Virus record (IMG/VR): IMGVR_UViG_3300050034_000334
Origin: a virus
Taxonomy: Duplodnaviria > Caudoviricetes
Length of the DNA stretch: 64,000 bases
Strand: one strand, 5' to 3'
Below are positions 11,367-52,205 of the stretch, one piece after another. How positions within the stretch are numbered: the stretch's first letter is position 1; each line of letters starts with the position of its first letter. The notes below the pieces were generated by a model that ran no database searches, was not told the DNA's origin, and worked only from the letters and a program-made list of their open reading frames with translations. A program made the position numbers and the translations under genes.

Positions 11367-11404
11367 ACCTCCTACCCGATATCTATAATACTTCGGTAGA
11401 AGGT
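11367..11404 (-). promoter_or_regulatory. Hairpin sequestering the AGGAGG RBS of GIY-YIG gene 10648..11355
   Basis: Minus strand ACCTTCTACCGA-loop-TCGGGTAGGAGGT, about 12 bp with one bulge. Confidence 0.65.
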
Positions 11405-26600: not shown

Positions 26601-26834
26601 CAGGTTACTCATGGCCGTTGTATTATATGCCAACGTGATAGTACTGTGGATTTCAGACACCACAGCAGTCAGAGTAGGATCTGCAAGGTTGAAGATGATG
26701 ATGTTGGTCGCCGCATTGATGATCAATTTCACCTGTCCGGCAGCAAGAGGAGCTGGAAGACCAGATAGAGTGATCACACCTGTGGAGGCATCAAAGGTGT
26801 ATGATCCGTAGTTTTGACCAACCATTACTTGCAT
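23610..26834 (-). CDS. Long tail-fibre-like repeat protein
   Basis: 1074 aa; many SGSVSVSNFP..Q.VTGTFWQ.TQPV repeats; poly-Gly hinge. Confidence 0.7.
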   Translation of the reverse strand: MQVMVGQNYGSYTFDASTGVITLSGLPAPLAAGQVKLIINAATNIIIFNLADPTLTAVVSEIHSTITLAYNTTAMSNLDPLQIIMEVPIYETVSVDNFPSTQAVSGSVNISNLPSIQSISGSVSVSNLPLTQTVAGSVSVSNFPSSQIVTGVFWQTTQPVSSTQLPAALDSSGNLKVAIENSSLAVTGTFWPTTQPVSGSVSISGTPSVSVSNFPSSQAVTGTFWQATQPVSISGTVPISGSISVSNFPSSQAVTGVFWQTTQPISGTVTSRLQDGLGNTLSSTSGSLNVNITGGGGGGGGVQYATGTAVVTSTGTVALGYNGTNVSALAVDGSGYLKVAVENSVAVTGTFWQATQPVSSTQLPTTLDGSGNLKVAIENSSIAVTGAFYQATQPVSGTVTANISGSVSNTAFGVTGDVAIVNSATGGKTKIAVTADAITFASPQHVIVDSATLGTVAVSGSFYQTTQPISGSVSITGTPSVSVDNFPVTQPVSAASLPLPTGAATAANQPALGTAGSASADVISIQGITGMTALRVDGSGVIQPISGSVSITGTPTISGTVNQGTSSSGALWSVQVDNSTAIAVADSAAETSLSTLAGAVTGAQLQVNVTNASIPVTGSFGGVQYTDGTTPGPTPTGTVMMGQNGSTVLAVQTDPNGNLYFLPYDNSLLDTETVTLVGPGISYSTFGYQTFSFQFSGLWAGNIRVEGSNDNISWFPLFGQNASDGINLDVFYGQGIYAVPVCSRYMRYNVLELLGSLSVVVVGKFAAPDDTPLLAQSFDATTGVQMNTNVINLNKDINNSLIISDAPNPIYIGGSAGQTSILDTQGYQSLNVTTQTMVATVTCSNDKVTWSALSGTPLILGALTSSTSAGAGFSFPCIARYIRFVVTTAGTATVFLRSTPWAGNYTTTGPTSSLTTNVATWAGTAGPSAGVAGVVAVGGNIAAGVLPTANPVLMAGIDTTLSATGTPAGLTRRLQTDTSGRLITASIDQANVARSLGSVSPNHNMQNTAALAIEDLSQFEGQTVPELLFQILIELKISNFYQYSLPALLTTGTTNSVGDEPSSLRNDPIATVFG
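25640..26540 (-). repeat. Degenerate peptide repeats (VSNFPxxQxVxG / FWQxTQPVSG) including a roughly 50-aa duplication
   Basis: QPVSSTQLPAALDSSGNLKVAIENSS vs QPVSSTQLPTTLDGSGNLKVAIENSS; coordinates approximate. Confidence 0.7.
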
Positions 26835-26865
26835 GAAGTACTCCTATTATTCACATCAGAAAGTC

Positions 26866-27564
26866 TTACAAAGCGATTGCATAAGCGATGGCAAGAGACC
26901 TGCTTGCTGCATTGACAATGCGAGAATCATCACCAGCAGCCACCGTACCCGCTGTGGTTCCAACATTCAGAGCAGCCGCGCCTCCCAACGTGGGTTTATT
27001 CAGAATCTCGGTCACTCCACTGACAGCATTCCAATCAGAATTCATCTGAGCAGTCGGAATCACGGGAGTGTGATTGAGATCCAGGTATGAACCTGAGGTT
27101 GCTACGGCTGCCAACCCATAGATGTCAGACGCCGCCAAAGTCACAGCACCAGTTCTACCTGCCACCGATTGAACCGGAGCACCTGCTGCTGTGATATATC
27201 CAGCATCATTGGTAAAAGTGCTGATAAGTGTTGGCTTATTAGAGAGATCCGTATAGCTACCGGAGGTTGCCACCGTGGCTAGAGTTGGCTTATGGAGAAT
27301 CGATGCAAGACCGGAAGTTGCATTCCAATCAACCTGAACCTGCGGAGTTGGTAGAGCCCAGGTTCTATCACCTCTGAGGAAATGAATTGCATCGCCAATA
27401 GCTGGAGCAGGAACATTGCCCGCCAGACCTCCAGTTCCTGTATCTCCCACAAAAATTGGATCTGAAGCAGAAACCAGGTTGCTAAAGGCATTGAACGTGA
27501 TGTTCTGCTGACCCGTTGGAGGAGCCGGGGTTATCGAGTTGTACCTGATAAAGACGGTAGTCAT
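26866..27564 (-). CDS. Tail-fibre-associated protein
   Basis: QVDWNATSG...HKP, ATSGSYTDLSNKP, VQSVAGRTGAVTL repeats. Confidence 0.7.
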   Translation of the reverse strand: MTTVFIRYNSITPAPPTGQQNITFNAFSNLVSASDPIFVGDTGTGGLAGNVPAPAIGDAIHFLRGDRTWALPTPQVQVDWNATSGLASILHKPTLATVATSGSYTDLSNKPTLISTFTNDAGYITAAGAPVQSVAGRTGAVTLAASDIYGLAAVATSGSYLDLNHTPVIPTAQMNSDWNAVSGVTEILNKPTLGGAAALNVGTTAGTVAAGDDSRIVNAASRSLAIAYAIAL

Positions 27565-27572
27565 CAGAATCC

Positions 27573-29282
27573 TCAGAGATACTGGTTGACGAATACACCG
27601 TTGACTTCGATGATTGTCTGCGGTGTTACAAATTGAGGAGTGTTGTTCTGCGTTTGCGTGATCGGAATTCCGTTGATCTCAATTACGATCTCCGGAGGAA
27701 TGATTGAAGGCGAAATGAACTGGGTCATACCCAGTTCGTTGTATCTCGGAACGATCGAAATCTGACTTGAATATCCGGCATAGTAGGGAGTTTCTGTGAC
27801 ATCGATCGCAACTACACGAGTCACTAGAGGAAGATAGACTTTCCAGTCACACATGGCAGATACATTCAAAGTTGAGATGTACCGGGTGGCCGTGCCACTC
27901 TCATCACGAGCCTCACCCTGTATATCTCTGGCAGCCTCGAAGATCGTGATTCCATCGCGCTCCATGGATACTCTTTGAGTTATCAGCAAGGCTTGCTTAA
28001 TGAGCTCAGCAATCTCTGAGGCGGTCGAGTAGTCGTTGGCCTTACAGTCCAGCGTGAAGTTCACGTTGTCCTTGGAGCCGTAGACGTTATACGTCTCACA
28101 CATCTGTGGGGCAATGATGATAGCAACCTGATCTCCAGCAGTAACCGAATCCCCGATGGCAACTCGATATCCAGGAATCAGATTTATGTTGATGCCCCTC
28201 TTTTTGGCAATTACTGTGGTCTCTGCCCCTGTATCAATGCGAATTTCGAATCTCATCCATTCCCCAGGATTGAGAGGATACGGAAGATTGACAGTACCAT
28301 CACTGTTTGCGATGAGAATCAGATTGCTTCGAGTTGAAGTGTTTACGAACACCTGACCAGCCGCCAAAGTTTCCCCTGGGTCAAGAGTGACATTGAGAAT
28401 GTTCTCAGGATTCAACGCGCTTGCAGTTGTGGGATTGATTTTCTGAATTCCCACGACATACAATTGCGTGCCAGGAGTGTTCCAAGCTGCCACACGAATG
28501 AGAGTCGGAGAGACAAAGACGTAGTCAATTCCTTGGCGAAGAATGTATCCGTTGTTGTCTGTGATCTGAATAGAGATCCAATCTCCAGGAATCAGAAATG
28601 TTTGGATTCCACCCAAGCTCGTACCGATGTCCACAGTACTCGTTCTTTGATACCAGAAATCTCTGTAGGGTACAAGAACCAGTCCTCCCAGTCCGATCGA
28701 GCAATTGATGTTATTTACGATGGATTGTAGCAAGACTCGACCAGGGACCGCCGCGAAAGTCACTGGACTCAAGGGTGTATCAGCATTTTCAATGTACACC
28801 GTCGAAGTGTCAATGCCAGAAGCAAAGTACACCCAGCTTCCCTCTGCGTTCGACAAGTTGCCTTCACGCCATTTGAACTTCTTGACATTCAGTGAAACTG
28901 TGGCATTCTGCTCATTGGGATTGGGTACAGTGACGACACCGTCAACTACGGTAGGAGGATTCACTGCGAGATAGTACACACCAGGGTCAATGAGACTCTC
29001 ACTAAATGGAATCATCCACTCCACGAACGTCCCAGCATAGTCACGAACCTTGGCCACGAGGCCGCGTCCACGCTGTGTGAACATGAAATAGTCTGGTGAC
29101 AGGCGAGTTCCCTGGGCTGTCACATTCTTGACAATGATCTGGGCATCACCAAAACTTACTCGATTGCTAGTGAATGCTGAGACATCCCCCAGCGTCTGTC
29201 TAAACCGGGGGTTGCTGCTCACCACATTCCTGCAGATCCGCAGTATGTATGCCGCCAAGTTTGCGCCTGTTAGATCCAGCAT
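27573..29282 (-). CDS. Probable tail/neck structural protein
   Basis: 569 aa beta-rich; C-terminal NFTLDCKAND..TASEIAE resembles tail-completion folds. Confidence 0.5.
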   Translation of the reverse strand: MLDLTGANLAAYILRICRNVVSSNPRFRQTLGDVSAFTSNRVSFGDAQIIVKNVTAQGTRLSPDYFMFTQRGRGLVAKVRDYAGTFVEWMIPFSESLIDPGVYYLAVNPPTVVDGVVTVPNPNEQNATVSLNVKKFKWREGNLSNAEGSWVYFASGIDTSTVYIENADTPLSPVTFAAVPGRVLLQSIVNNINCSIGLGGLVLVPYRDFWYQRTSTVDIGTSLGGIQTFLIPGDWISIQITDNNGYILRQGIDYVFVSPTLIRVAAWNTPGTQLYVVGIQKINPTTASALNPENILNVTLDPGETLAAGQVFVNTSTRSNLILIANSDGTVNLPYPLNPGEWMRFEIRIDTGAETTVIAKKRGININLIPGYRVAIGDSVTAGDQVAIIIAPQMCETYNVYGSKDNVNFTLDCKANDYSTASEIAELIKQALLITQRVSMERDGITIFEAARDIQGEARDESGTATRYISTLNVSAMCDWKVYLPLVTRVVAIDVTETPYYAGYSSQISIVPRYNELGMTQFISPSIIPPEIVIEINGIPITQTQNNTPQFVTPQTIIEVNGVFVNQYL

Positions 29283-35180: not shown

Positions 35181-35208
35181 TACCCGAAACTCGTGTCCCT
35201 TCGGTAGA
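35181..35208 (+). promoter_or_regulatory. TACCCGA-N16-GTAGA promoter-like motif
   Basis: Exact motif upstream of GGAGG RBS and ATG 35226. Confidence 0.65.
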
Positions 35209-35225: not shown

Positions 35226-35444
35226 ATGAACAAAGCACTATTAAAATCGCTCAAACAGGCAGTTCGATACATTGAAGTCACGAATGCATACCGTGGAGCA
35301 ATGACTGCTGCTGAAGTAGAAGCAGCGATCAAGCGTAACATCAATGACTCTCGCGTGGAAATCGGAGCCAACAGTTGCACCACGCTGGACTCATTTGATA
35401 TTCATGCTGCCAAGGCGGCTATTAAACTGGCCGAAGAGGTATAA
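35226..35444 (+). CDS. Small hypothetical protein
   Basis: 72 aa, GGAGG RBS. Confidence 0.7.
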   Translation: MNKALLKSLKQAVRYIEVTNAYRGAMTAAEVEAAIKRNINDSRVEIGANSCTTLDSFDIHAAKAAIKLAEEV

Positions 35445-35454
35445 TCAAGAAAAA

Positions 35455-35474
35455 CGGTCGCCCGAAGACGACCG
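35455..35474 (-). terminator. Hairpin with U-tract between convergent genes
   Basis: aaaaa-cggtcg-N8-cgaccg. Confidence 0.5.
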
Positions 35475-35495
35475 CTTGACTTGTAAAGGATCTCG

Positions 35496-35753
35496 TTACA
35501 CGGCGGACAAGGTCATTCTATTTCTAGACTCGATCTTTGTGGGCTTGGGATCTGGGTTCAGCATGGTCATTCTAGAGGGACTTTTGGAACCTTGATTTTC
35601 AGGGGTGAATCTCAAGTATCCCTTCGAAATGCTCTGTTTCAGAAAAACTTCAAGCTCTTTTGCCAATTTGGGGTTTGATGTTTGAACTACCAGATCTCCA
35701 CTTCCAGTGAGAAAATCAGTAATCATGATTTCAGTAGTAACTTCCGCTTCCAT
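35496..35753 (-). CDS. Small hypothetical protein
   Basis: 85 aa, AGGA RBS. Confidence 0.55.
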   Translation of the reverse strand: MEAEVTTEIMITDFLTGSGDLVVQTSNPKLAKELEVFLKQSISKGYLRFTPENQGSKSPSRMTMLNPDPKPTKIESRNRMTLSAV

Positions 35754-35829
35754 TTCGTTTTCCTATCTCCTGAATTCAATGATATACCTAGATTTCCCAC
35801 GAGGGTAACTGTTTTACACCTGATTTCAC

Positions 35830-35857
35830 TACCCGAAACTCACATGAACTCCGTAGA
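35830..35857 (+). promoter_or_regulatory. TACCCGA-N16-GTAGA promoter-like motif
   Basis: Exact motif 7 nt upstream of ATG 35865. Confidence 0.65.
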
Positions 35858-35864
35858 GAGAAGT

Positions 35865-36104
35865 ATGGAAAATAGAGCAAAGGTCATCAAGCAGAAGTAC
35901 ACCACAGCCAAAGCCAAGCTCCCTTCTTGGGCGCGCAACCTTCAGGTCGATGACGATCCTCGCCTCCCGGTGAAGACTCTCGAGAACTTGAAGCAAGCTG
36001 TTCGTGACGAGATCACGATGTACCTTCGCGGCCTGAACCCTCTCACCGACAAGCAGTATGCTCAACTCCGCGAATGGCAGGATTGGGCCGGGAGATCACT
36101 GTGA
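35865..36104 (+). CDS. Small hypothetical protein
   Basis: MENRAKVIKQK...; start reassigned from 35682. Confidence 0.6.
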   Translation: MENRAKVIKQKYTTAKAKLPSWARNLQVDDDPRLPVKTLENLKQAVRDEITMYLRGLNPLTDKQYAQLREWQDWAGRSL

Positions 36105-36330
36105 AGAGACTGACTTCGGTGGCTCTTACCTCTACACCTTCGCTGACCCGACTGGCAATGTCATCAAGTGGTTCGCTTCCAACGAACTGCAGCTGGGCGA
36201 CGGAAGCTACAATGTGAATTCCATGATTGACGCCATCGGAAAGATTGTTAGTTTGAAAGGAACCATCACCAAACACGAAGAGTACAACGGTGTCAAGGCA
36301 ACCTACATCAACCGGGCTGTGATAGTGTAA
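36058..36330 (+). pseudogene. Probable OB-fold C-terminal fragment lacking its N-terminus
   Basis: ETDFGGSYLYTFAD..GNVIKWFAS...LKGTITKHEEYNGVKATYINR; first about 15 residues look non-homologous. Confidence 0.4.
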
Positions 36331-37555: not shown

Positions 37556-37594
37556 AGAACCTCTCCGAGATTAAGCGGAGAGGTTCTTCTTTTT
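37556..37594 (+). terminator. Intrinsic terminator
   Basis: agaacctctccg-N8-cggagaggttct then tcttttt; contains the stop of the convergent kinase gene. Confidence 0.85.
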
Positions 37595-38365
37595 GAATTC
37601 AGATCTCTTGAAGTGATAGAGATCGTCTGCACGACCGCACACTCCACAAGTGGGATCCTTGGGATCAGGTTCACCCTCCGAGAAATCTGGTTCCCACTGA
37701 TGATGAAAGGCCTCTGCTTCATCCCTGATCCAACCCAACACAGTTGAGACCGCTTGCTTGTGAGGAATGGTCCGCACGTCCTTGGTCTTGGACTGGCAGG
37801 GCTTGATCTTGCAACACTCACACTTGTCAGTTCCCGCCAGTTCGAACTTCTTCCTGGATGAGATGATAGCCTCGAACTTCGGCGCCAGAGTCTTGTAAGG
37901 ATCGAAGGGCTTGATATTCCCCTTGGCCGCCCTGCGGGACAGCGTCTGATCGATGCAACGCTGGAGAGGGGTGTCGAGAAAGCCAAAGATGAAGTGATGC
38001 TCATTGAGTTCATCAGCCAAACTGTTGTAGCGACTGAACAGACCGGAGATCAGCAAACCTTCATACAGGACGTTGCCCAGAGGAGCCCACTCACGAATGA
38101 GATCACAGATCTTATCCTGAGTGTTGATCCCGTCACATCCACCACACTCATTGACATAGGAGCCTAGAACATACAAATCTTTGGGTTGCATCTGTTTGTT
38201 ATTTGGATTCTTAGGAGGGATAACCACGTTCTTACACACGTATCCACGGATCTTGCCTTTTTCATCCAGAATGGGCTGACCATCGTATACACTCAGAATC
38301 GCTCTGACAATGGTACTTTTCCCTCCGCCATTCGTGGAGCGGATGTTCACAACTAGGTTCCCCAT
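37571..38365 (-). CDS. P-loop kinase resembling 5-hydroxymethyluracil-DNA kinases of hypermodification loci
   Basis: NIRSTNGGGKSTIVR; YVLGSY...CGGCDGI; VLYEGLLIS; LDTPLQRCIDQTLSRR. Confidence 0.65.
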   Translation of the reverse strand: MGNLVVNIRSTNGGGKSTIVRAILSVYDGQPILDEKGKIRGYVCKNVVIPPKNPNNKQMQPKDLYVLGSYVNECGGCDGINTQDKICDLIREWAPLGNVLYEGLLISGLFSRYNSLADELNEHHFIFGFLDTPLQRCIDQTLSRRAAKGNIKPFDPYKTLAPKFEAIISSRKKFELAGTDKCECCKIKPCQSKTKDVRTIPHKQAVSTVLGWIRDEAEAFHHQWEPDFSEGEPDPKDPTCGVCGRADDLYHFKRSEFKKKNLSA

Positions 38366-38406: not shown

Positions 38407-39282
38407 ATGAGAACTAATACTGAGAAAATCTGTTCATGTGGTAAGTCATTCAGAATGACATATAGGCTGGAGGGAATTCCCACCAATAAATGTCTTGCTT
38501 GTTCCTTCCCAGAAGAAATTGCTCGAAGAAAGGAGCGTTTCAAGGGATCCAGTAATCCTAGATTTGGAAAACCAGGCACTATGAAAGGAAGAAATCCGTA
38601 TGATCTGTGGGTTGAGAAGTACGGAACGGAAGAAGCCGATCGTCGTAAATCTGAACTCAACTCTAAACAGGGACGTCCTCATACAAAGGATTGGAAAGAA
38701 GATCACAGTAGGAAAATGACTGAATCTAATTCCATGGCTGGCCGTTCTATATACTCAGTCTGGCTGGAGAACTATGGGAAGGAAGAAGCCGACTGTAGGA
38801 TGATAGCATCCAGAGCTAAATGGAGTCTAGCTTCTTCCGGATCCAACAACCCCATGTTTGGAAAACCCTCTCCTATCGGTTCCGGTTGTGGATGGAGCGG
38901 CTGGTATCGGGTTCACTACTTTCGAAGTCTCCTTGAACTCTCTTACATGCTCAAATTTGATGAGGAAGGTACTGTTTGGGAATCCGCTGAGAAGAAATAC
39001 CACAAAATTCCCTACCAGACTTCAACCGGATCTAAGAATTTCTTTCCTGATTTCTATCTTCCTCTCACAGAGGAATTTGTTGAAATCAAACCTCGAGCAT
39101 TGACGTACACAGAGGGTAATAAGGCCAAATTTGCTGCCGCCAAAAATCTCCTAGGAGATAAGTTCAAAGTGCTCACAGAAGACAACATTCACAAGATACA
39201 AGGAGATCAACTGAGTCACTTAGTTTCTTCTGGAACGGTCAAGCTACTTCCAAAATGGCAAAACCGACTTTCAATCTCGTAA
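38407..39282 (+). CDS. Putative homing endonuclease, TnsA-like PD-(D/E)XK with NUMOD3 repeats
   Basis: GSSNPRFGK/GSNNPMFGK; FRSLLEL; FFPDFYL...VEIKP. Confidence 0.75.
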   Translation: MRTNTEKICSCGKSFRMTYRLEGIPTNKCLACSFPEEIARRKERFKGSSNPRFGKPGTMKGRNPYDLWVEKYGTEEADRRKSELNSKQGRPHTKDWKEDHSRKMTESNSMAGRSIYSVWLENYGKEEADCRMIASRAKWSLASSGSNNPMFGKPSPIGSGCGWSGWYRVHYFRSLLELSYMLKFDEEGTVWESAEKKYHKIPYQTSTGSKNFFPDFYLPLTEEFVEIKPRALTYTEGNKAKFAAAKNLLGDKFKVLTEDNIHKIQGDQLSHLVSSGTVKLLPKWQNRLSIS

Positions 39283-41295: not shown

Positions 41296-41313
41296 AGTTT
41301 TCTCTACGGAATT

Positions 41314-42027
41314 TCATGCCAGAGCGGGTACAAATTCGATATCCCATCTATCACATGATTCCTTTGAGAGAAATTGACCCATCGCTCGCCTAGTCATCAT
41401 CTGATTGCGAATACTTTTGCGGATTTGTTCAGGAGAGTTTACCTGCCCTTTGTGTGATTCACTAAGTCTGTCAACTGTTTCCTGTGAGGCTTTCTGGCCT
41501 ATCCTCCGACTTCGAATATCAGCAATCTGCTGTTCTGACCAAGGGTTTTCTCTTCGTATCTTGGACAACAATTGCTTCTGTTCAGCACTCATAGGCCCTT
41601 TTGTCTTGCCTCTCTGTACATCACCAATTTTCTTTCTGGAGGCTGCTGTATGACAGTAGTTCCCCCTTCTTCTTCGAGTTTCAACTCTTTTTCGTATTTC
41701 TTCTTGAGACTGAACTCTTCCAGCACCACTGTACGCCTTAGCTAGACTGTTGTATCCATTGTGGAAAGCATCTAGCTTATCAATCCAGAATTGTTCTCGT
41801 TCTTCCAATTTTGCTCTGTTTGGGTTAGTAATTTCTTCAAGCACATTCCAATCCCAAACCTCTGAACCATACTTCTTCCAGGAACGAAGCAGCTTTGGGC
41901 CGGTGTGGCTCCCGTCTTTGAATCCTTGAATATGAATTTGCCATCTTCCATAAATATCCACAGAACTTCCAACGTAGGACTTCTTGGAATTCCGATTGTA
42001 TATTTGATATACACCAGCAGTCTTCAC
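41314..42027 (-). CDS. GIY-YIG homing endonuclease with NUMOD3
   Basis: GVYQIYNRNSKKSYVGSS; REQFWIDKL; GGAGGT RBS. Confidence 0.9.
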   Translation of the reverse strand: MKTAGVYQIYNRNSKKSYVGSSVDIYGRWQIHIQGFKDGSHTGPKLLRSWKKYGSEVWDWNVLEEITNPNRAKLEEREQFWIDKLDAFHNGYNSLAKAYSGAGRVQSQEEIRKRVETRRRRGNYCHTAASRKKIGDVQRGKTKGPMSAEQKQLLSKIRRENPWSEQQIADIRSRRIGQKASQETVDRLSESHKGQVNSPEQIRKSIRNQMMTRRAMGQFLSKESCDRWDIEFVPALA

Positions 42028-44494: not shown

Positions 44495-45136
44495 TCAGTT
44501 CACTGAACAAGTGAAACCTTTGGGAAGATCTTGCAAGTCATACCGCAGGAGTTTGCTACCGGCGATGCATCTCACGATTTCGTCAGGAGTCACAGGGCAG
44601 ACCGGAGGATAGGGACTTTCCTTGAGAGTCTGAACCACCTGTCCCGGGATACGACCCACAGAGTACTCAGGACGCATGATGAGCGGAGCATCCACGCAAA
44701 CTTCGCGGCCTCTGATCATCTTTCCCTTCTCGTCGCGAACCTCAGGTGTGATTCCCCAGAGCAGATGACCCAGGGCATGGTGCATCATCATGCCGGCATA
44801 GGTTCCTGCCAGACTCTTGATCCTCTTGCATCCACGCTTGATCGCTTCGGCCTCGACAACCTTGTAGAGTTCCGTGGCATATCCTTTGCGACGGATGGCG
44901 ACCGGAGTGTAGGCTGTGTACCAGTTGGCATAGGGTTCCCAGATGTTCTTGCTCTTCTTGCCGAAATAGGTGACATTCAGCGTGAGCAGGGCACCAGCCG
45001 GGTCACGGAGGATATAGAGGGGTGCCCCTCTGAAGACTCCCATATCAACTTCTGACAGGACTGAGGATTTCTCTCCGATATCCTTGACGATCCTTCTGGC
45101 TTCTTTGGGCTCAGTTACGATTTCAATCGTGTTCAC
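44495..45136 (-). CDS. GNAT-family acetyltransferase
   Basis: YTPVAIRRKGYATELY acetyl-CoA motif A; GTG start overlaps the TGA of the upstream gene (GTGA), GGAG RBS. Confidence 0.75.
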   Translation of the reverse strand: MNTIEIVTEPKEARRIVKDIGEKSSVLSEVDMGVFRGAPLYILRDPAGALLTLNVTYFGKKSKNIWEPYANWYTAYTPVAIRRKGYATELYKVVEAEAIKRGCKRIKSLAGTYAGMMMHHALGHLLWGITPEVRDEKGKMIRGREVCVDAPLIMRPEYSVGRIPGQVVQTLKESPYPPVCPVTPDEIVRCIAGSKLLRYDLQDLPKGFTCSVN

Positions 45137-47010
45137 TTGGACACTCCAATCGGTGCGTTGGGTAGCAGTCCTCGATTGATCATCGGCCACAAGCCGATCA
45201 TTCGACCTTCATCTCTAAGGACGTGCTCCATGGATCGGGTAACTCTGACTCTTGGAGGATCTACCAACTCTCCAAGATACTCATGAATGAGGTTTTCTTT
45301 CCTGAATTGCCATAGAACATTCCAGTCTATTCCGCTGGTGATATCCTGCTGATCTTGCATCTGCTGAATCTCGTCCGCCATTCGATCAAGGTAGTATGGC
45401 AGATAGCGACCTTTGGTGGTCCGGAAGTATCCCTTGTATGCACACAGACACGACTCCATGAACCAGTGATCCATGCCCAGCAGAGGGTACTCAACTTGGA
45501 TCTCCTTGATCAGAATTTCGAGCTCTTTCTCGAGCCAAGCCCACTGCTCCTTGTTGAGTTTTTCGAAGGCCCAATCGGCTTTGCCCAGGACGATGCAGAG
45601 GCCAGCGCGTGGCGAGTCAGCTTCTTTAAGGAAGACTGTGTCAGCCTGGAGAGGCATTCCCATACAGCGAGCAAGGCACTCAGTGTAGATGTACACACTG
45701 TAACGACCGAAGCGCATGAATTGGTTCAGGGCCTTGGTCACGTTGTGGAAGTTCTCAATCTTGTTGGTGGAGGTGAGGTGCTTGGCGAAGAATTCCTCCT
45801 GGGCAGTCGAGGTCTGTTTGCCCATCTGCTTGACATAGTCCTCGAACATCTCCACGAAGTGACCCTTGAGATACTTCCGGTCCGTGTTGTACCTCAGCTT
45901 CTTCCAGTTCTCAGTATGCCAACGACGGAGCCGCCCGATGTCGATCTTCTCGAACTCAGGAAATTCCTGCATCACATAGAAGACAGAGCCGGGGTGATAG
46001 AACACTCCATACAAGTAACAAATCCAGTACTCCTGACTCTTTGACATCTCCCACCGGCGGAAGACGTAGTTCAGCAGAGCATAGTTTGGATCTATCTCCC
46101 AGGAGGCCACGGAGGATACACAGTACCTTTTGAATGAGTCACGAAGAGCCTTGCGATGGTCTCCTCCGGTCCAAATTGGGAGGTCAAGAATCACATGCTT
46201 GCTGTCAAAAGGGACCGAATGCTTGCTCATCATGACGTTCGCAATGGGAGGTCTCTCAAATCTCTTCTCAGGAGCATAGTACGTTTTGTATCTCTGAGAA
46301 CTGACGGACTTTCCTGTACCAGAGAAGGTGTATATGGTGTAAGGTTCACACTCCTGAACTGTACACTTGTGTCCCTCGAACTCGAAGGCTCTCATGATGA
46401 TGTCCTGAGTGGAAGCGAATCCTTGCATGGACAATTCAGGACAGTCAAACATCCACAAAGGTCTCAAGTGGTCCCGCATCAGATAGATGGACCCCAGATA
46501 GTCTAGGAATCCACAAGCAAAGATAGGAGGAGCCACTTCATAAACTTTTCGAAAAGCCTCAGCAATGGTGCCTTTCAATGCATGACGTAAGAATATCTCG
46601 GAGTCATTGGCGGTCTCGGTGTCGATCTTGTAATCGGCTTCGAACTCTTCCTTGGTCGCCATAGACACCAGACCGTTATGGACGATCGCCAGCTGCGGAG
46701 TGCTGAGAGGCTGAGTGTTATTGTTGTCATGCCAGTCTCCACTGGTGGAGTACCGGCAATGTCCAATCATGGTCTTCGGAATCTTGCAAGACAGATCCGT
46801 CCAGCCAGCCGTTTCCAGCAGGGCCTCAGCACAAATTGGCGCCTTGAAGGTCTTGACCTCTCCCTGTTGCCAGGTTGGACCTTCCACCCAAGACACCCCA
46901 GACGCGTGCTTCCCACGAACCTGAGCCTCAATCATCAGCCGCTCAAATACCTTGAAGGCATCGTGTGCTCGGTCAGTATTGTACAGCTTGTACCCAACGA
47001 TTCCGCACAT
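45133..47010 (-). CDS. Class II glutamine amidotransferase fused to amino acid:DNA transferase (aGPT-Pplase2-like) domain
   Basis: MCGIVG, GHCRYSTSG, HNG, DSE; C-half DPNY, FGRYSVYIYTECL, SPRAGLC, ESCLCAYKG, GRYLPYYLDR. Confidence 0.75.
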   Translation of the reverse strand: MCGIVGYKLYNTDRAHDAFKVFERLMIEAQVRGKHASGVSWVEGPTWQQGEVKTFKAPICAEALLETAGWTDLSCKIPKTMIGHCRYSTSGDWHDNNNTQPLSTPQLAIVHNGLVSMATKEEFEADYKIDTETANDSEIFLRHALKGTIAEAFRKVYEVAPPIFACGFLDYLGSIYLMRDHLRPLWMFDCPELSMQGFASTQDIIMRAFEFEGHKCTVQECEPYTIYTFSGTGKSVSSQRYKTYYAPEKRFERPPIANVMMSKHSVPFDSKHVILDLPIWTGGDHRKALRDSFKRYCVSSVASWEIDPNYALLNYVFRRWEMSKSQEYWICYLYGVFYHPGSVFYVMQEFPEFEKIDIGRLRRWHTENWKKLRYNTDRKYLKGHFVEMFEDYVKQMGKQTSTAQEEFFAKHLTSTNKIENFHNVTKALNQFMRFGRYSVYIYTECLARCMGMPLQADTVFLKEADSPRAGLCIVLGKADWAFEKLNKEQWAWLEKELEILIKEIQVEYPLLGMDHWFMESCLCAYKGYFRTTKGRYLPYYLDRMADEIQQMQDQQDITSGIDWNVLWQFRKENLIHEYLGELVDPPRVRVTRSMEHVLRDEGRMIGLWPMINRGLLPNAPIGVSK

Positions 47011-47059: not shown

Positions 47060-47257
47060 CTAGATTTGGGTCATCTTCTCTTGAAGAACAGCGAGCCCAT
47101 CCAGCACCATTGCCACAAGCAGCGTTTGGCGATGGACGTTCAATCTCAGAGCATGCTCTTCGATCAGATTCGCTTGCGACTCAGGAATTCGCAACGTGAA
47201 CGCCTTGAATGGTTCTTTCTTTCCCAGGTTATTCACCAGATTTTCAACGTAGCTCAT
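47060..47257 (-). CDS. Ribbon-helix-helix-like DNA-binding protein
   Basis: FTLRIPESQANLIEEHALRLNVHRQTLL; ATGA overlap with Nudix stop. Confidence 0.5.
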   Translation of the reverse strand: MSYVENLVNNLGKKEPFKAFTLRIPESQANLIEEHALRLNVHRQTLLVAMVLDGLAVLQEKMTQI

Positions 47258-47709
47258 AACCACCCCATGTGTCGAAACTTCTCGATGCACGGATACCAGA
47301 TCTTGTCCTGCAGCTTCGGCAAATCTGTTACTGGGACCCACTGCCAGTCGCTACTCTTGGTTGGCTCTGTGTTGACCGGCTCGCCGCCGATCCATTCTCC
47401 GACGAAGTAGATCGTGATGTAATGCTTGCCCTGTTCCCGACTGATGTCCTCGGTGAATCCGACGAGATGGACTTTTCCCAAAGTTAGACCCGTCTCTTCT
47501 TCGGTCTCACGACGAGCCGCTTCAGATGCCAACTCGTACTTCTCTACATGACCGCCTGGTAAACTGAGGAATCCATATCCGTATTCCTTCCTGCGAATTC
47601 CCAACAGGATGTACTCCAGCCCAATCCCTTCCGGGTCTCCACCAGGAAGGTACTTGTGGACGATCATGCCGGTGCCAACACCGGGCCTCTCAATAGAGTC
47701 TGAACTCAC
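47254..47709 (-). CDS. Nudix hydrolase
   Basis: GGHVEKYELASEAARRETEEETG Nudix box. Confidence 0.92.
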   Translation of the reverse strand: MSSDSIERPGVGTGMIVHKYLPGGDPEGIGLEYILLGIRRKEYGYGFLSLPGGHVEKYELASEAARRETEEETGLTLGKVHLVGFTEDISREQGKHYITIYFVGEWIGGEPVNTEPTKSSDWQWVPVTDLPKLQDKIWYPCIEKFRHMGWL

Positions 47710-49809: not shown

Positions 49810-49837
49810 TCTACCAGTAGAATCGTAAATTCGGGTA
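49810..49837 (-). promoter_or_regulatory. TACCCGA-N16-GTAGA promoter-like motif
   Basis: Exact motif 7 nt upstream of ATG 49802. Confidence 0.65.
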
Positions 49838-49871: not shown

Positions 49872-50642
49872 ATGACTACAAATCTATACGCAGAGAAACT
49901 GGAGCAAAACGCCATCAGCAACAAGTACACTCGATGGTATCTACGTCTTTGCCTCAGAGCAGGTAATCGAAGTGATCTTCAAGGATACATTGAAGAACAT
50001 CATGTCCTTCCTAGATGTCTCGGAGGAAATTCTGAAAAGACTAATCTTGTGATTTTAACCGCAAGAGAACATTTCATTGCTCATCTTCTCCTCACTAAAA
50101 TGTTCAGAGGGCAACGGTTGTACAAGATGCTGGCCGCTGCTTTCTTCATGGCAAACCGTACTCGGATGTATCGAGGAAGCCGCACTTATCAAACTCTACG
50201 AGAAAACTATGCCCAGGAAGTGAGTAACCATTTCAAGGGAGTTCCAATTTGTTCAGACGTGCTGGCCGCAAGGATCGGAAAGTCTCACGACCATCATGTT
50301 CTTCCACATCCTGTTCACCAATGTATACTCGTTGGAGAAACAATAGCTGAATTTGGGCACGATCCTCGTATTCTTAAATCTATGAGTAACCGCAAAGTGA
50401 AAGTCAGGTATCCCTGCTGTGGAACTATTTTAGACCGGCCATTCTATGCAGCCAATAAAGGATTGAACTACTGTAAATCCTGTTTTATACAGAAGAATCT
50501 GGAGGCAATGAATACCTTTCAAGGGCGCAAAGAAGCTGCTGAAAGGATGCGTGATAAGTGGACAAAAGCATCCTTCCGGGAGCATACCTCTCGAGCAGTA
50601 TCCAATGCGAACAAGACTAGGAGAACTCCACCAAGTACCTGA
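49872..50642 (+). CDS. HNH homing endonuclease
   Basis: EEHHVLPRCLGG...NLVILTAREHFIAHLLL. Confidence 0.88.
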   Translation: MTTNLYAEKLEQNAISNKYTRWYLRLCLRAGNRSDLQGYIEEHHVLPRCLGGNSEKTNLVILTAREHFIAHLLLTKMFRGQRLYKMLAAAFFMANRTRMYRGSRTYQTLRENYAQEVSNHFKGVPICSDVLAARIGKSHDHHVLPHPVHQCILVGETIAEFGHDPRILKSMSNRKVKVRYPCCGTILDRPFYAANKGLNYCKSCFIQKNLEAMNTFQGRKEAAERMRDKWTKASFREHTSRAVSNANKTRRTPPST

Positions 50643-52083
50643 TGTTGGCTTGGCTTACTCTGTAGACTATGGCCTCATGATTCATGATTCCACTTCTTCC
50701 TGGTACTGCATTGCAAGAATCATACCCAGACTGCTTTCCGTTGCCTGGTCCAGAAGGAACGTACTCTCTCCCCATGGCCACATCCACTAAGAACATATAG
50801 CAGTTTTTGTCTTTGTTTCCACCGTCCCAGTAACCATATGAATAGTTCAAACTTTTCGTGCTATTTTCACTGAAATACAATCCATTTCCGAACATCGCGC
50901 CGGTGGTGGAGATGGTGCTCAGTGCATTGGGCATGACCAAGCCACGCTTGAGGATCGACAGCACGTTGAACATACGAGTTCCGTGCCACAATTCCTTGAT
51001 GTTGCCGACCTTGTGACCGTCGGTGTCGAAAGCCTTGATCATGTGAGGGATGGTAACCTCATAGACCCGAACTGGCTTCAACACGGAGGACTGATGACCA
51101 CGAGTGCCGGTCGTGAGATACTTGTGCTTGATGCGCTCGATGAGTTTGTTGTCCGAAACCAAAGTGAGTTTGCATTCAAAGGTCGAAGGAGCAGCCACGA
51201 CTTTCTTGTCAGTGACCTTGTTGGCCGCGTTCACGGCATCCGTGATGCGCTGTTCGGCGATTTCGATCGAGGTTTCGATCTGGTCGAGCAAAGAGGTCTG
51301 CTTCGCGAGATCGATGAAATCTTTGTGCCATCCCCGCAGACGAGGAGTAGCTTGGGGAACCAAGCGGAGGTATCTGCTGAGCAGACCAGGTTCACCGGGC
51401 TTGCCACAGTAGATAGGATTTTCGGTGTCGTTCTTGCGAACGAACGGCTCCATCTGAGAGAGGATTGTACGGGCACCTTGAACTGCTTCGAGAGTCACAA
51501 CGCCCATCGCGGTGCGAACGATGCCCGTTGCCAGGTCTATGTCCATGCCGCCTTGTTCGATACCACCAGTCGCCTTGATGAGTTCGTGCCTGTTCGCTTC
51601 CGCAAGTTTCTTGACCAGTTCAGCCGTGACAGGACAGGCACCGGCGATTTCCTTGACAGCCACTCTCTTGACTTCTTCCTTGGCCATTGACGATCCGCCG
51701 TTGCCATTGGAAGGCCGATTGAAAGAGACTTTGCCCGACTCAGCTTCGCCGCCCACGATCGTGATTTCCGTGTAGCTTGGCTCAGGGAAAGGCTTGTGAG
51801 TCTTCTCGTAGACCTTGGAGAGGAAGTCCCTCTCGCTGGAAGAAACAGTCTTCTTCAGAAGTTTGAAACGGATCTCGTTATTGATGACTGTCATGTCGAG
51901 AGGGAAGGTGAGACCTGAGCGCACAAGAGGTTTGGTCTGCGTGGCCATTGGGCCACCCACTCTGCCCCACTCGTATTTGACAGTATTGTCGTCGTAGACG
52001 GTATAGGTCCAGGCCTTATTGTGATTAGCGTCAGCATTTGCCTCAACTGCGATGAACTTCCGATGCTCGATTATACCAGCCAT
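50617..52083 (-). CDS. PARP-like ADP-ribosyltransferase with N-terminal WGR domain
   Basis: NKAW...YEWGRVG; LWHGT, GAMFGNGLYFSENSTKSLNY, NHEAIVY (H-Y-E); start moved to 52083. Confidence 0.88.
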   Translation of the reverse strand: MAGIIEHRKFIAVEANADANHNKAWTYTVYDDNTVKYEWGRVGGPMATQTKPLVRSGLTFPLDMTVINNEIRFKLLKKTVSSSERDFLSKVYEKTHKPFPEPSYTEITIVGGEAESGKVSFNRPSNGNGGSSMAKEEVKRVAVKEIAGACPVTAELVKKLAEANRHELIKATGGIEQGGMDIDLATGIVRTAMGVVTLEAVQGARTILSQMEPFVRKNDTENPIYCGKPGEPGLLSRYLRLVPQATPRLRGWHKDFIDLAKQTSLLDQIETSIEIAEQRITDAVNAANKVTDKKVVAAPSTFECKLTLVSDNKLIERIKHKYLTTGTRGHQSSVLKPVRVYEVTIPHMIKAFDTDGHKVGNIKELWHGTRMFNVLSILKRGLVMPNALSTISTTGAMFGNGLYFSENSTKSLNYSYGYWDGGNKDKNCYMFLVDVAMGREYVPSGPGNGKQSGYDSCNAVPGRSGIMNHEAIVYRVSQANIRYLVEFS

Positions 52084-52090
52084 GCACTTC

Positions 52091-52118
52091 TCTACTGTCT
52101 TTGAGTGAAAATCGGGTA
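52091..52118 (-). promoter_or_regulatory. TACCCGA-N16-GTAGA promoter-like motif
   Basis: Exact motif 7 nt upstream of PARP ATG 52083. Confidence 0.65.
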
Positions 52119-52205
52119 ATCTATTTGACTTCCCAATCCATAGTGTACGTGCCAATCGCGACCCTGGCAGGTCCACTGGCCCTATGACTGAGAAGGAGTC
52201 ACAGC

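What the first reader, a model, noticed from the sequence alone, without database searches (positions are those of the whole stretch)
44495..47010. Glutamine amidotransferase fused to an amino acid:DNA transferase and coupled to a GNAT: candidate new DNA hypermodification route
Seen: the 625-aa ORF has an intact class II (Ntn) GATase (Cys2, GHCRYST, HNG, DSE). It is joined to a domain with aGPT-Pplase2/amino acid:DNA transferase-like motifs (FGRY, SPRAGLC, ESCLCAYK, GRY..YYLDR). Its stop overlaps the GTG start of a GNAT. Known: in ViI/M6/PaMx11-type phages, 5hmdU in DNA is phosphorylated, the phosphate is displaced by a free amino acid, and PaMx11 trims and acetylates the product to 5-acetylaminomethyl-dU. 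Inference: here glutamine-derived ammonia could be channelled straight onto phospho-5hmdU to give 5-aminomethyl-dU, which the GNAT then acetylates, a shorter route. Alternatively the GATase amidates a transferred acidic amino acid. I know of no characterised GATase-transferase fusion.
Basis: partly seen in the sequence, partly recalled or inferred. Interest (0 to 1): 0.9.

Follow-up and report, generated by a model that had tools for sequence, protein, structure and literature searches.

The report
Glutamine-fed DNA thymine aminating enzyme
A peat-soil jumbo phage encodes one protein that joins a glutamine-splitting domain to a DNA-base transferase, followed by an acetyltransferase. Comparison with about 100 related gene clusters indicates it puts ammonia directly on activated thymine in DNA, a shortcut to a known phage DNA modification that nobody has tested.

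Summary
Window 45133-47010 (-) encodes a 625-aa fusion.

- **Domains:** residues 2-245 are an intact class II glutamine amidotransferase (PurF Z 25.3). Residues 284-576 have the fold of PaMx11 gp46, the solved glycine:DNA transferase (Z 18.5; Pfam ADDT 3.5e-20).
- **Downstream gene:** a GTGA-overlapping 213-aa gene has a GNAT fold.

- **Obligate partnership:** this transferase clade is always partnered with the amidotransferase, whether fused, split upstream or split downstream (84 of 87 loci; the other 3 are cut at the contig end).
- **Exclusion of the FAD lyase:** the clade never co-occurs with the gp47-type FAD lyase (0 of 87). Every gp47 locus that keeps its transferase gene has a gp46-type transferase, and none has an amidotransferase.
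- **Shared acetyltransferases:** two acetyltransferase families, including homologues of the validated 5-aminomethyl-dU acetyltransferase gp48, occur in otherwise syntenic clusters with either partner set.
- **Active site:** the catalytic Cys, metal ligands and most of the phosphate pocket are kept. The glycine-holding Trp146 and Lys150 are replaced by Tyr and Ile/Phe.

Most likely: glutamine-derived ammonia attacks 5-phosphomethyl-dU to give 5-aminomethyl-dU, which is then acetylated.

Unresolved: no 5hmdU source was found in the 143.5 kb I could search of a roughly 342-kb genome. Papers note the amidotransferase association, but I found no functional study. The scan's notes hold this fusion only for this genome.

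The parts
46261..47010 (-). Class II (Ntn) glutamine amidotransferase domain of the fusion (residues 1-250). The nucleophile Cys2 is encoded at 47005-47007.
   Evidence: Pfam GATase_6. A family profile matches PurF chains at E 2.3e-14. The AF2 model aligns to PurF 8w7d at Z 25.3 and to the GlmS glutaminase domain 1xff at Z 24.4 over residues 2-245. C2, R32, H84, R86, Y87, S88, T89, S90, H111, N112, G113, N135, D136 and E138 are invariant or at least 90% conserved in 38 family members.
45283..46161 (-). DNA-base transferase domain (AADT/gp46 fold, residues 284-576). The predicted catalytic Cys523 is encoded at 45442-45444.
   Evidence: Pfam ADDT PF18724 at E 3.5e-20. The model aligns to PaMx11 gp46/PUGT 8z2m_A at Z 18.5, rmsd 3.4, 257 of 287 residues; the next unrelated fold scores Z 9.8. 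Residue map: C523=C247, E519=E243, S520=T244, D307=D24, Y334=Y47, Y338=Y51, E547=E265. The glycine-holding residues differ: Y437 replaces W146 and I441 replaces K150.
45133..45282 (-). C-terminal extension of the fusion (residues 577-625) plus the stop codon. It is shared by amidotransferase-linked transferases and absent from gp46-type ones. It is a candidate docking or tunnel element.
   Evidence: Residues aligned to P0001 580-620: median 40 in fused proteins, 34 in split ones and 0 in gp46-type. G602 is invariant. Its role is inferred, not shown.
44495..45136 (-). GNAT-fold acetyltransferase (213 aa). Its GTG start overlaps the fusion's TGA stop (GTGA). It is the predicted 5-aminomethyl-dU N-acetyltransferase.
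   Evidence: Overlap and GGAG ribosome site. Pfam Acetyltransf_1 at 21.3 bits. GNAT fold at Z 13.3. The family has 10 clusters with a conserved RRxGxA acetyl-CoA motif. Relatives sit between a gp46-type transferase and an FAD lyase in PaMx11-like clusters (L097, L098, L099), and next to amidotransferase plus transferase in L102 and L103.
37571..38365 (-). P-loop half of the 5-hmdU DNA kinase (264 aa). The helical half (PF18723, 295 aa) lies outside the window, 24.2-25.1 kb before its start (G000 35342-36229, +).
   Evidence: tblastn matches PaMx11 gp49 (34.6% identity, E 9e-17) and SP-10. It scores 263 bits against the kinase family of the fused-type clusters. The helical half gives Pfam HMUDK_hel at E 2e-40. 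PaMx11 has the same two-gene split, gp49 plus gp50.
47254..47709 (-). NUDIX hydrolase two genes upstream in the same gene run. It is a possible nucleotide-pool accessory, and its membership of the pathway is not established.
   Evidence: Pfam NUDIX at E 4.4e-20. It keeps this position in all three contigs with the identical fusion. No NUDIX was recorded in the clusters of homologues.

Best explanation
The 625-aa protein is a glutamine-dependent DNA aminotransferase. Thymine positions in phage DNA are first present as 5-hydroxymethyl-dU. The two-part kinase (P-loop half at 37571-38365, helical half elsewhere in the genome) phosphorylates them to 5-phosphomethyl-dU. The C-terminal gp46-like domain flips the base out, and Cys523 attacks C6. 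Phosphate leaves, and an exocyclic methylene forms. In PaMx11 free glycine attacks this intermediate. Here the nucleophile would instead be ammonia, released from glutamine by the N-terminal Cys2 amidotransferase domain and passed internally, giving 5-aminomethyl-dU in one step. The translationally coupled GNAT then acetylates the amine to 5-acetylaminomethyl-dU. The result would be DNA that resists host nucleases. What is shown: both domains, their folds, their conserved catalytic residues, the gene coupling, and the comparative pattern. What is inferred: ammonia as the nucleophile, internal channelling, the acetylated end product, and the presence of 5hmdU in this phage.
For: (1) Both domains are intact. 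The amidotransferase aligns to PurF at Z 25.3, with Cys2, R86, N112-G113 and D136 at least 90% conserved in 38 members. The transferase aligns to gp46 at Z 18.5, with the catalytic Cys, metal ligands and most of the phosphate pocket conserved. The AF2 model has pLDDT 94.2 and pTM 0.93, which suggests a fixed two-domain arrangement.
(2) Rosetta-stone pattern: of 87 loci with this transferase clade, 84 carry the amidotransferase, fused in 7 and separate in 77. The other 3 are cut at the contig end. Gene order varies (L015 has the transferase first, L016 the amidotransferase first). Fused forms appear at several places in a tree.
(3) Module swap: none of the 87 loci has a gp47-like FAD lyase. All 18 FAD-lyase locus records lack the amidotransferase, and all that keep a transferase gene carry a gp46-type one. 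L103 (amidotransferase, GNAT, transferase, kinase, helical half, TS, HD) is syntenic with L097/L099 (gp46-type, GNAT, FAD lyase, kinase, helical half, TS, HD).
(4) The GNAT in L011-L013 is a gp48 homologue (35% identity, E 9e-27). gp48 acetylates 5-aminomethyl-dU and does not act on glycinyl-thymidine (PMC8989533).
(5) The glycine contacts of gp46 (PMC11472151) are lost. W146 becomes Tyr, or Phe/His in 5 of 84. K150 becomes Ile or Phe in 79 of 84 sequences and is never Lys. D262 becomes Met or Gln in most.
(6) Chemical precedent. The gp51 intermediate accepts other nucleophiles (PMC8989533). By the title of the reference cited there, and from my own knowledge, tRNA MnmEG uses ammonium or glycine. 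PurF, the closest amidotransferase, likewise has ammonia displace pyrophosphate (general knowledge).
Against: There is no biochemical or mass-spectrometric evidence at all. No dUMP hydroxymethylase (PF00303), ThyX, Tet/JBP dioxygenase or dCMP deaminase was found in the 143.5 kb of this genome that I could search, so a 5hmdU supply is unproven here. In this phage the pathway genes are scattered: one kinase half is 7 kb away and the other about 70 kb away. The GNAT here is not a gp48 orthologue (hhalign probability 0.5%). I could not read model coordinates, so no tunnel between Cys2 and Cys523 has been shown. The replaced glycine contacts were compared only with gp46-type enzymes, not with serine- or putrescine-using transferases. 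The loci are phylogenetically related, so the counts overstate the number of independent observations.
Confidence: 0.6

Rival explanations
1. The N-terminal domain is an Ntn amidohydrolase that works on something other than free glutamine. It might release a larger amine from a gamma-glutamyl amide for transfer to DNA, or trim a glutamine or gamma-glutamyl group after the transferase has attached it. The final base would then not be 5-aminomethyl-dU.
For: The model also aligns well to EgtC, a class II-type Ntn hydrolase that cleaves a gamma-glutamyl amide rather than feeding ammonia to a synthase (Z 22.6). The residues that hold the glutamyl moiety are common to both activities.
Against: The closest matches by sequence and structure are true ammonia-channelling enzymes, PurF and GlmS. 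The perfect exclusion of the FAD lyase, together with shared gp48-type acetyltransferases, points to the same acetyl acceptor as in PaMx11. The transferase pocket has become more hydrophobic, not more polar.
Confidence: 0.14
2. One reading: the transferase still attaches an acidic amino acid, and the amidotransferase converts its carboxylate to an amide.
For: Amidoligases and amidotransferases are listed together as unexplained neighbours of these clusters (PMC8989533).
Against: From general enzymology, carboxylate amidation by class II amidotransferases needs an ATP-dependent activating domain, as in AsnB. None is present in the 625-aa protein, whose two domains and linker account for the whole chain. 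The amino-acid contacts of gp46 are lost. gp48 does not act on glycinyl-thymidine, yet gp48 homologues follow the fusion.
Confidence: 0.06
3. In this particular phage the module is a stranded remnant. The genes are intact, but the phage makes no 5hmdU, so its DNA carries ordinary thymine or the enzyme acts on another substrate.
For: No TS-like, ThyX, Tet/JBP or dCMP deaminase gene lies in the searchable 143.5 kb. The kinase halves are dispersed, and homing endonuclease genes interrupt the region.
Against: All four pathway genes are full length with conserved catalytic residues. The identical protein was read on 21 contigs. The fusion and GNAT are translationally coupled. More than half of the genome could not be searched.
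Confidence: 0.1

Closest known systems
PaMx11 gp46 (PUGT, glycine:DNA transferase), gp47 (FAD glycinyl-thymine lyase) and gp48 (acetyltransferase): the 5-acetylaminomethyl-dU pathway (PMC8989533, PMC11472151)
   Same: The C-terminal domain has the same fold (Z 18.5). The catalytic Cys, metal ligands and most of the phosphate pocket are the same. The kinase is split in the same way as gp49 plus gp50. A GNAT follows the transferase. Homologous clusters (L011-L013, L103) are syntenic with PaMx11 down to the TS and HD genes.
   Different: There is no FAD lyase. The transferase is joined to a glutamine amidotransferase. The glycine-binding Trp146 and Lys150 are replaced. A roughly 40-aa C-terminal extension is added. 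The two transferase clades do not cross-hit each other's profiles at E 1e-5. The GNAT in this window belongs to a different GNAT family from gp48.
PurF (glutamine PRPP amidotransferase) and GlmS: class II amidotransferases with an ammonia channel
   Same: Both have an N-terminal Cys nucleophile domain fused upstream of an acceptor domain. They are the best sequence and structure matches (E 2.3e-14, Z 25.3). From general knowledge, ammonia in PurF also displaces a phosphate-type leaving group.
   Different: The acceptor domain here is a DNA base-flipping helical-bundle enzyme, and the acceptor would be a base inside polymeric DNA. I found no amidotransferase described as acting on DNA. A channel has not been shown here.
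Thymine-dioxygenase (5mYOX) clusters with ParB, amidotransferase, P-loop kinase and AADT (PMC13229309; preprint 10.1101/2025.08.14.668559)
   Same: The split relatives of this fusion sit in exactly such clusters. Tet/JBP is next to the amidotransferase and transferase in 66 of 87 loci, with a P-loop kinase in 62.
   Different: In this window, and in L011-L013, the two genes are fused. The fused-type clusters use a TS-like dUMP hydroxymethylase instead of a dioxygenase. The papers list the domains but assign the amidotransferase no function. They do not report the roughly 207-aa GNAT-like gene I find in 73 of 87 loci.
tRNA wobble-uridine pathway MnmEG/MnmC, with its ammonium route to nm5U and its glycine route to cmnm5U
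   Same: The logic is the same. Glycine addition followed by an FAD lyase (MnmC1, the homologue of gp47) and direct ammonia addition both give the same aminomethyl-uracil (PMC8989533 discussion). The ammonium route itself is recalled from my own knowledge and from the title of the reference cited there.
   Different: The enzymes for the addition step are unrelated, and the substrate is RNA. MnmEG takes free ammonium and has no glutaminase domain.

Membership tests
Class II (Ntn) glutamine amidotransferase | Cys as the first residue after the initiator Met (N-terminal nucleophile) | tested here: met
   The protein starts MCGIVG. M1 and C2 are at least 90% conserved in 38 family members.
Class II (Ntn) glutamine amidotransferase | Glutamine-binding Arg and Asp, and the Asn-Gly oxyanion hole | tested here: met
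   R86 (in GHCRYST), N112-G113 (HNG) and D136 (NDSE) align with the PurF motifs. They are invariant or at least 90% conserved.
Class II (Ntn) glutamine amidotransferase | Four-layer alpha-beta-beta-alpha Ntn fold | tested here: met
   Matches are PurF 8w7d (Z 25.3, rmsd 2.6, 221 aligned), GlmS 1xff (Z 24.4) and AsnB (Z 20.1). Foldseek agrees.
Class II (Ntn) glutamine amidotransferase | Glutaminase activity coupled to an acceptor site through an ammonia channel | not testable with these tools
A pTM of 0.93 suggests a fixed interface only.
Amino acid:DNA transferase (AADT, Pfam PF18724; formerly aGPT-Pplase) | Profile match above the curated cut-off | tested here: met
   73.2 bits against a cut-off of 26.2, E 3.5e-20; 75.8 bits in the genome search.
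Amino acid:DNA transferase (AADT, Pfam PF18724; formerly aGPT-Pplase) | The two-helix-bundle fold of gp46/PUGT | tested here: met
   8z2m_A at Z 18.5, rmsd 3.4, 257 of 287 residues over model residues 284-576; the next fold scores Z 9.8.
Amino acid:DNA transferase (AADT, Pfam PF18724; formerly aGPT-Pplase) | Catalytic Cys (gp46 C247), metal ligands (E243, T244) and the phosphate pocket | tested here: met
   C523, E519, S/T520, D307, Y334, Y338 and E547 are conserved in 84 of 84, or nearly all, clade members. E92 becomes D377 and K261 becomes R543. The residue roles come from PMC11472151.
Amino acid:DNA transferase (AADT, Pfam PF18724; formerly aGPT-Pplase) | A binding site for a free amino acid (gp46 W146 and K150 hold glycine) | tested here: not met
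   W146 becomes Tyr (79 of 84). K150 becomes Ile or Phe in 79 of 84 and is never Lys. D262 becomes Met or Gln in most. It is therefore a member by fold and chemistry, but probably not an amino-acid transferase in the strict sense.
GNAT acetyltransferase (the downstream gene) | GNAT fold with the acetyl-CoA motif Q/R-x-x-G-x-G/A | tested here: met
   Z 13.3 over residues 1-153; 223 chains at Z 8 or more, and all 50 listed are GNAT-fold entries. Foldseek's top 50 are all GNATs. The RRKGYA motif sits at residues 81-86 of the 213-aa protein, and the family consensus is RRxGxA with R82, G85 and A87 invariant.
GNAT acetyltransferase (the downstream gene) | Orthology to PaMx11 gp48, the validated 5-aminomethyl-dU acetyltransferase | tested here: not met
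   hhalign probability 0.5%. Its own family does occupy the gp48 position in gp46-plus-FAD-lyase clusters (L097-L101, L106).
5-hmdU-derived thymidine hypermodification pathway | 5-hmdU DNA kinase | tested here: met
   The P-loop half matches gp49 (E 9e-17). The helical half gives PF18723 at E 2e-40.
5-hmdU-derived thymidine hypermodification pathway | A source of 5hmdU (dUMP hydroxymethylase or thymine dioxygenase) | tested here: inconclusive
   PF00303, PF02511 and PF12851 are not found in the 143.5-kb record. That record is 46% complete, and the full contig is 342,198 bases. Homologous clusters have TS (7 loci) or Tet/JBP (66 loci).
5-hmdU-derived thymidine hypermodification pathway | Modified thymidine in virion DNA | not testable with these tools
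   This needs LC-MS or native-read signal analysis.

The most novel reading that the evidence does not exclude
This is the first glutamine amidotransferase whose acceptor is a base inside double-stranded DNA. An ammonia channel would end at a flipped-out, phosphate-activated thymine. The enzyme pair, fused or split, would be one of the commonest thymine-hypermodification modules in environmental phages. It mostly works downstream of sequence-specific thymine dioxygenases, so aminomethyl- or acetylaminomethyl-uracil would be a widespread site-specific DNA mark.
Probability: 0.5. Interest if true: 0.8.

Novelty: new variant of a known kind. Interest (0 to 1): 0.72.

Why it matters
Amidotransferase genes have been listed as unexplained neighbours of thymidine-hypermodification genes since at least 2021. 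This analysis turns that loose association into a specific prediction with a simple test: kinase plus fusion plus glutamine on 5hmdU DNA should give a 257-u nucleoside. If correct, it adds a new reaction class to DNA enzymology, namely glutamine-dependent amination of a base in polymeric DNA. It would also show that phages reach the same modified base by two interchangeable enzyme modules, as tRNA modification does. It would assign a product to many metagenomic clusters, including the thymine-dioxygenase clusters described in 2026. It could also give a one-enzyme way to put a reactive primary amine on DNA for labelling or sequencing chemistry.

Tried and rejected
- **Cultured phages.** Nucleotide megablast of 8 kb around the gene found nothing. 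tblastn found only separate domain matches, with no full-length fusion among 50,697 phage records.
- **Solved structures by sequence.** Single-sequence phmmer against PDB sequences found nothing. The family profile found only amidotransferases, not gp46. The gp46 link needed the structure search. hhalign of the family against gp46 alone gave only 23.5% probability, although its alignment agreed with the later MAFFT map.
- **Foldseek on the whole model.** The list was filled by amidotransferase hits and did not show gp46.
- **Reaching the rest of the genome.** An exact 38-mer scan of viral contigs returned nothing because own records are hidden. The contig look-up did not show the 342-kb record. 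Notes of the scan mention no TS or dioxygenase in other windows. The 5hmdU source therefore stays open.
- **Iyer et al. 2013** (PMC3763556) is not held, so I could not check whether it already discussed this fusion.
- **Pseudo-enzyme idea.** Rejected, because all catalytic amidotransferase residues are conserved.
- **ParB lead.** A weak ParB_N match at G000 26660-26887 (E 5.8e-5, below the cut-off) lies in a 749-aa InPase/GNAT protein. No dioxygenase is nearby, so I do not count it as a ParB-dioxygenase system.
- **Size of the family.** The figure '518 relatives in IMG/VR' mixes hits to either domain. I do not use it as the size of the family.
Full report
**What is there.** The minus-strand ORF 45133-47010 encodes 625 residues. 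Pfam finds a class II glutamine amidotransferase domain (GATase_6, E 1.8e-8) and an amino acid:DNA transferase domain (ADDT PF18724, E 3.5e-20, 73 bits against a cut-off of 26). PHROGs has no family with both domains. The stop codon overlaps the GTG of the next gene (GTGA at 45133-45136), with GGAG 7 nt upstream. The fusion's own ATG is preceded by AGGA. No terminator-like site separates the two genes. The window is part of a 143.5-kb viral record judged 46% complete. The identical protein is also recorded on a 342,198-base contig. Earlier notes of this scan call the genome a peat-soil jumbo phage.

**Structure.** An AlphaFold2 model built on 38 homologues is very confident (pLDDT 94.2, pTM 0.93).
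- Residues 2-245 align to PurF (Z 25.3), the GlmS glutaminase domain (Z 24.4), EgtC (Z 22.6) and AsnB (Z 20.1).
- Residues 284-576 align to the crystal structure of PaMx11 gp46/PUGT, the 5-phosphomethyl-dU glycinyltransferase. The match is Z 18.5, rmsd 3.4 and 257 of 287 residues, far above the next fold at Z 9.8.
- In the family alignment the amidotransferase catalytic set is invariant or at least 90% conserved: Cys2, Arg32, His84, Arg86, Asn112-Gly113 and Asp136. It aligns motif for motif with PurF. The domain is therefore not a decayed pseudo-enzyme.

**The neighbour is a GNAT.** Pfam support was marginal (21.3 bits). The 213-aa protein does have a conserved family of its own (10 clusters). 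Its model (pLDDT 87.5) matches GNAT acetyltransferases only: Z up to 13.3, 223 chains at Z 8 or more, and all top 50 Foldseek hits.

**Other pathway parts in this genome.**
- The 264-aa protein at 37571-38365 (-) has no Pfam hit. It matches PaMx11 gp49 (E 9e-17) and SP-10, and it falls in the kinase family of the fused-type clusters (263 bits).
- The helical half of the kinase (PF18723, E 2e-40) lies at G000 35342-36229, about 70 kb from the fusion. Both leads came from earlier scan notes and hold up. PaMx11 has the same two-gene kinase, gp49 and gp50.
- I found no thymidylate-synthase-like gene, ThyX, Tet/JBP dioxygenase, dCMP deaminase or FAD lyase in the 143.5 kb.

**The fusion is a family, and its context is telling.** At least 60 protein clusters at 34-84% identity share the full architecture, and all are unnamed. 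Three homologues on contigs of about 94-106 kb sit in this cluster: unknown gene, fusion, P-loop kinase, GNAT, helical kinase half, TS-like gene, HD phosphohydrolase. This is the PaMx11 order (gp46 transferase, gp47 FAD lyase, gp48 acetyltransferase, gp49, gp50, gp51 TS, gp52 HD), with gp46 plus gp47 replaced by the fusion. The GNAT of these clusters is a gp48 homologue (35% identity over the full length, E 9e-27). Lee et al. showed that gp48 acetylates 5-aminomethyl-dU and does not touch glycinyl-thymidine (PMC8989533).

**The closest stand-alone relatives have a separate amidotransferase gene.**
- In L015 it overlaps the transferase's 3' end.
- In L016 the order is Tet/JBP, amidotransferase, 212-aa gene, transferase, P-loop kinase.

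I fetched 80 viral contigs and scored all ORFs with profiles built from these families. Of 87 loci with this transferase clade:
- 84 carry the amidotransferase (7 fused, 77 split). The remaining 3 have the transferase within 1 kb of the contig end.
- 79 carry a GNAT-family gene. The roughly 207-aa family between the two genes is a weak Pfam GNAT, and it matches this window's GNAT at 20.6 bits.
- 66 carry Tet/JBP and 7 carry a TS-like gene.
- None carries a gp47-like FAD lyase.

**The reverse test.** I collected loci by the window's GNAT family and by gp47. All 18 FAD-lyase locus records lack the amidotransferase. All that keep a transferase gene within the locus carry a gp46-type one. Both GNAT families cross over.
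- The window's family occurs with amidotransferase plus transferase in G000, L019, L102 and L103, and with gp46-type plus FAD lyase in L097-L101 and L106/L107.
- The gp48 family occurs with the fusion in L011-L013, and with gp46 plus gp47 in PaMx11, L110, L113 and L114.
- L103 and L097/L099 are gene-for-gene syntenic apart from this swap.
- The loci are related to each other, so these counts describe a pattern and are not a statistical test.
- In a quick tree the amidotransferase-linked transferases form one clade on a long branch. Fused forms appear at several places in it (branch supports not examined).

**Active site.** I used the residue roles from the gp46-DNA-glycine structure (PMC11472151) and a MAFFT alignment of 84 clade members with 5 gp46-type proteins.
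- Conserved: the nucleophile Cys247 (Cys523 here), metal ligands Glu243/Thr244 (Glu519/Ser520), Asp24 (Asp307), and most of the phosphate pocket, Tyr47, Tyr51 and Glu265 (Tyr334, Tyr338, Glu547).
- Replaced: Trp146, whose indole NH binds the glycine carboxylate, is Tyr. Lys150, which holds the glycine amine, is Ile or Phe in 79 of 84 sequences and never Lys. The pocket residue Asp262 is Met or Gln in most.
- Added: the clade carries a roughly 40-residue C-terminal extension that gp46-type enzymes lack.

**Mechanism proposed.** The kinase makes 5-phosphomethyl-dU. Cys523 adds to C6, phosphate leaves, and ammonia from glutamine hydrolysis at Cys2 attacks the exocyclic methylene to give 5-aminomethyl-dU. 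The GNAT then acetylates it. The chemistry has precedent. The M6 gp51 intermediate is trapped by borohydride and by mercaptoethanol. The tRNA enzyme pair MnmEG uses ammonium or glycine, the glycine route needing the gp47 homologue MnmC1; the ammonium route is my own knowledge, supported here only by the title of the reference cited in PMC8989533. In PurF, ammonia displaces pyrophosphate (general knowledge). I put this mechanism at about 0.6.

**Rivals.**
- A gamma-glutamyl-amide hydrolase role for the N-terminal domain, prompted by the EgtC match: 0.14.
- A stranded module in this phage, because no 5hmdU source was found: 0.10.
- Amidation of an attached acidic amino acid, for which no activating domain exists: 0.06.

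**Literature.**
- Lee et al. 2021 mention amidoligase and 'glutaminotransferase' Pfam matches near these genes as functions 'not yet known'.
- The 2025 preprint and 2026 PNAS paper on phage thymine dioxygenases list amidotransferases, P-loop kinases and AADTs as linked machinery and colour the domains in figures. They give no role for the amidotransferase.
- Full-text searches for 5-NmdU, 5-AcNmdU, 5-HMUDK, 5-PmdU, aGPT-Pplase and GATase found no characterisation.
- Iyer et al. 2013 could not be read.

The gene association is therefore known, while the functional assignment and its comparative support are, as far as I could find, new. I rate it a new variant of a known kind of system.

**Limits.** There is no experiment. 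No model coordinates were available for a tunnel analysis. More than half of the genome could not be reached. The residue comparison uses only one characterised transferase type.

Noticed in passing
window 49810-49837(-), 52091-52118(-), 35181-35208(+), 35830-35857(+), 11373-11400(+); one-mismatch copies at 45214-45241(-) and 41303-41330(-): The bipartite motif TACCCGA-N16-GTAGA, reported by another note of this scan, is real: 7 matches at up to 1 mismatch against 0.14 expected by chance. The copy at 49810-49837 sits just upstream of the first gene of the minus-strand run that contains the fusion. A one-mismatch copy lies inside the fusion's 3' end, about 80 nt before the GNAT start, and could be an internal promoter.
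   Followed up: partly
window 50617-52176(-): A 519-aa protein has a PARP catalytic domain (Pfam PF00644, E 6.4e-23), preceded by the same bipartite motif. It lies in a region that also encodes NUDIX proteins, so this may be an ADP-ribose-centred host takeover or counter-defence module.
   Followed up: no
G000 26645-28894(-) = L003:6645-8894, about 32-34 kb before the window's start: A 749-aa protein combines an InPase domain (PF18823, E 1.7e-26), an FR47-like GNAT and a weak ParB_N-like C-terminus. It lies next to a 994-aa NUDIX protein, and its function is unknown.
   Followed up: no
window 41314-42027(-), 38407-39282(+), 49872-50642(+): Three homing-endonuclease-like genes (GIY-YIG plus NUMOD3; NUMOD3; phrog_655) are interspersed among the modification genes. 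They may explain why the cluster is scattered in this phage, whereas it is compact in relatives.
   Followed up: no
L052:7194-8066 (family c4, about 292 aa) and L011:8426-9913 (family c50, 495-658 aa): Two conserved partners have no Pfam match. c4 occurs in 44 of 87 amidotransferase-transferase loci, sometimes where no P-loop kinase is seen. c50 lies directly upstream of the fusion in L011-L013. Both may be unrecognised pathway components.
   Followed up: partly
proteins P0132, P0155, P0199, P0074, P0104, P0165, P0078, P0192, P0197 (relatives of the transferase domain): The transferase domain is also found fused to a 5-hmdU kinase (HMUD2, Ploopntkinase3), a PLP enzyme, a Tet/JBP dioxygenase and a low-molecular-weight phosphatase. 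In two cases it is interrupted by an HNH intein. Fusion to pathway partners is therefore a habit of this family.
   Followed up: partly
L017 and L018 (fused-type clusters): These clusters have the fusion, both kinase halves and a TS-like gene, but no detectable GNAT. Their end product may be unacetylated 5-aminomethyl-dU. Five FAD-lyase loci likewise lack a GNAT.
   Followed up: no
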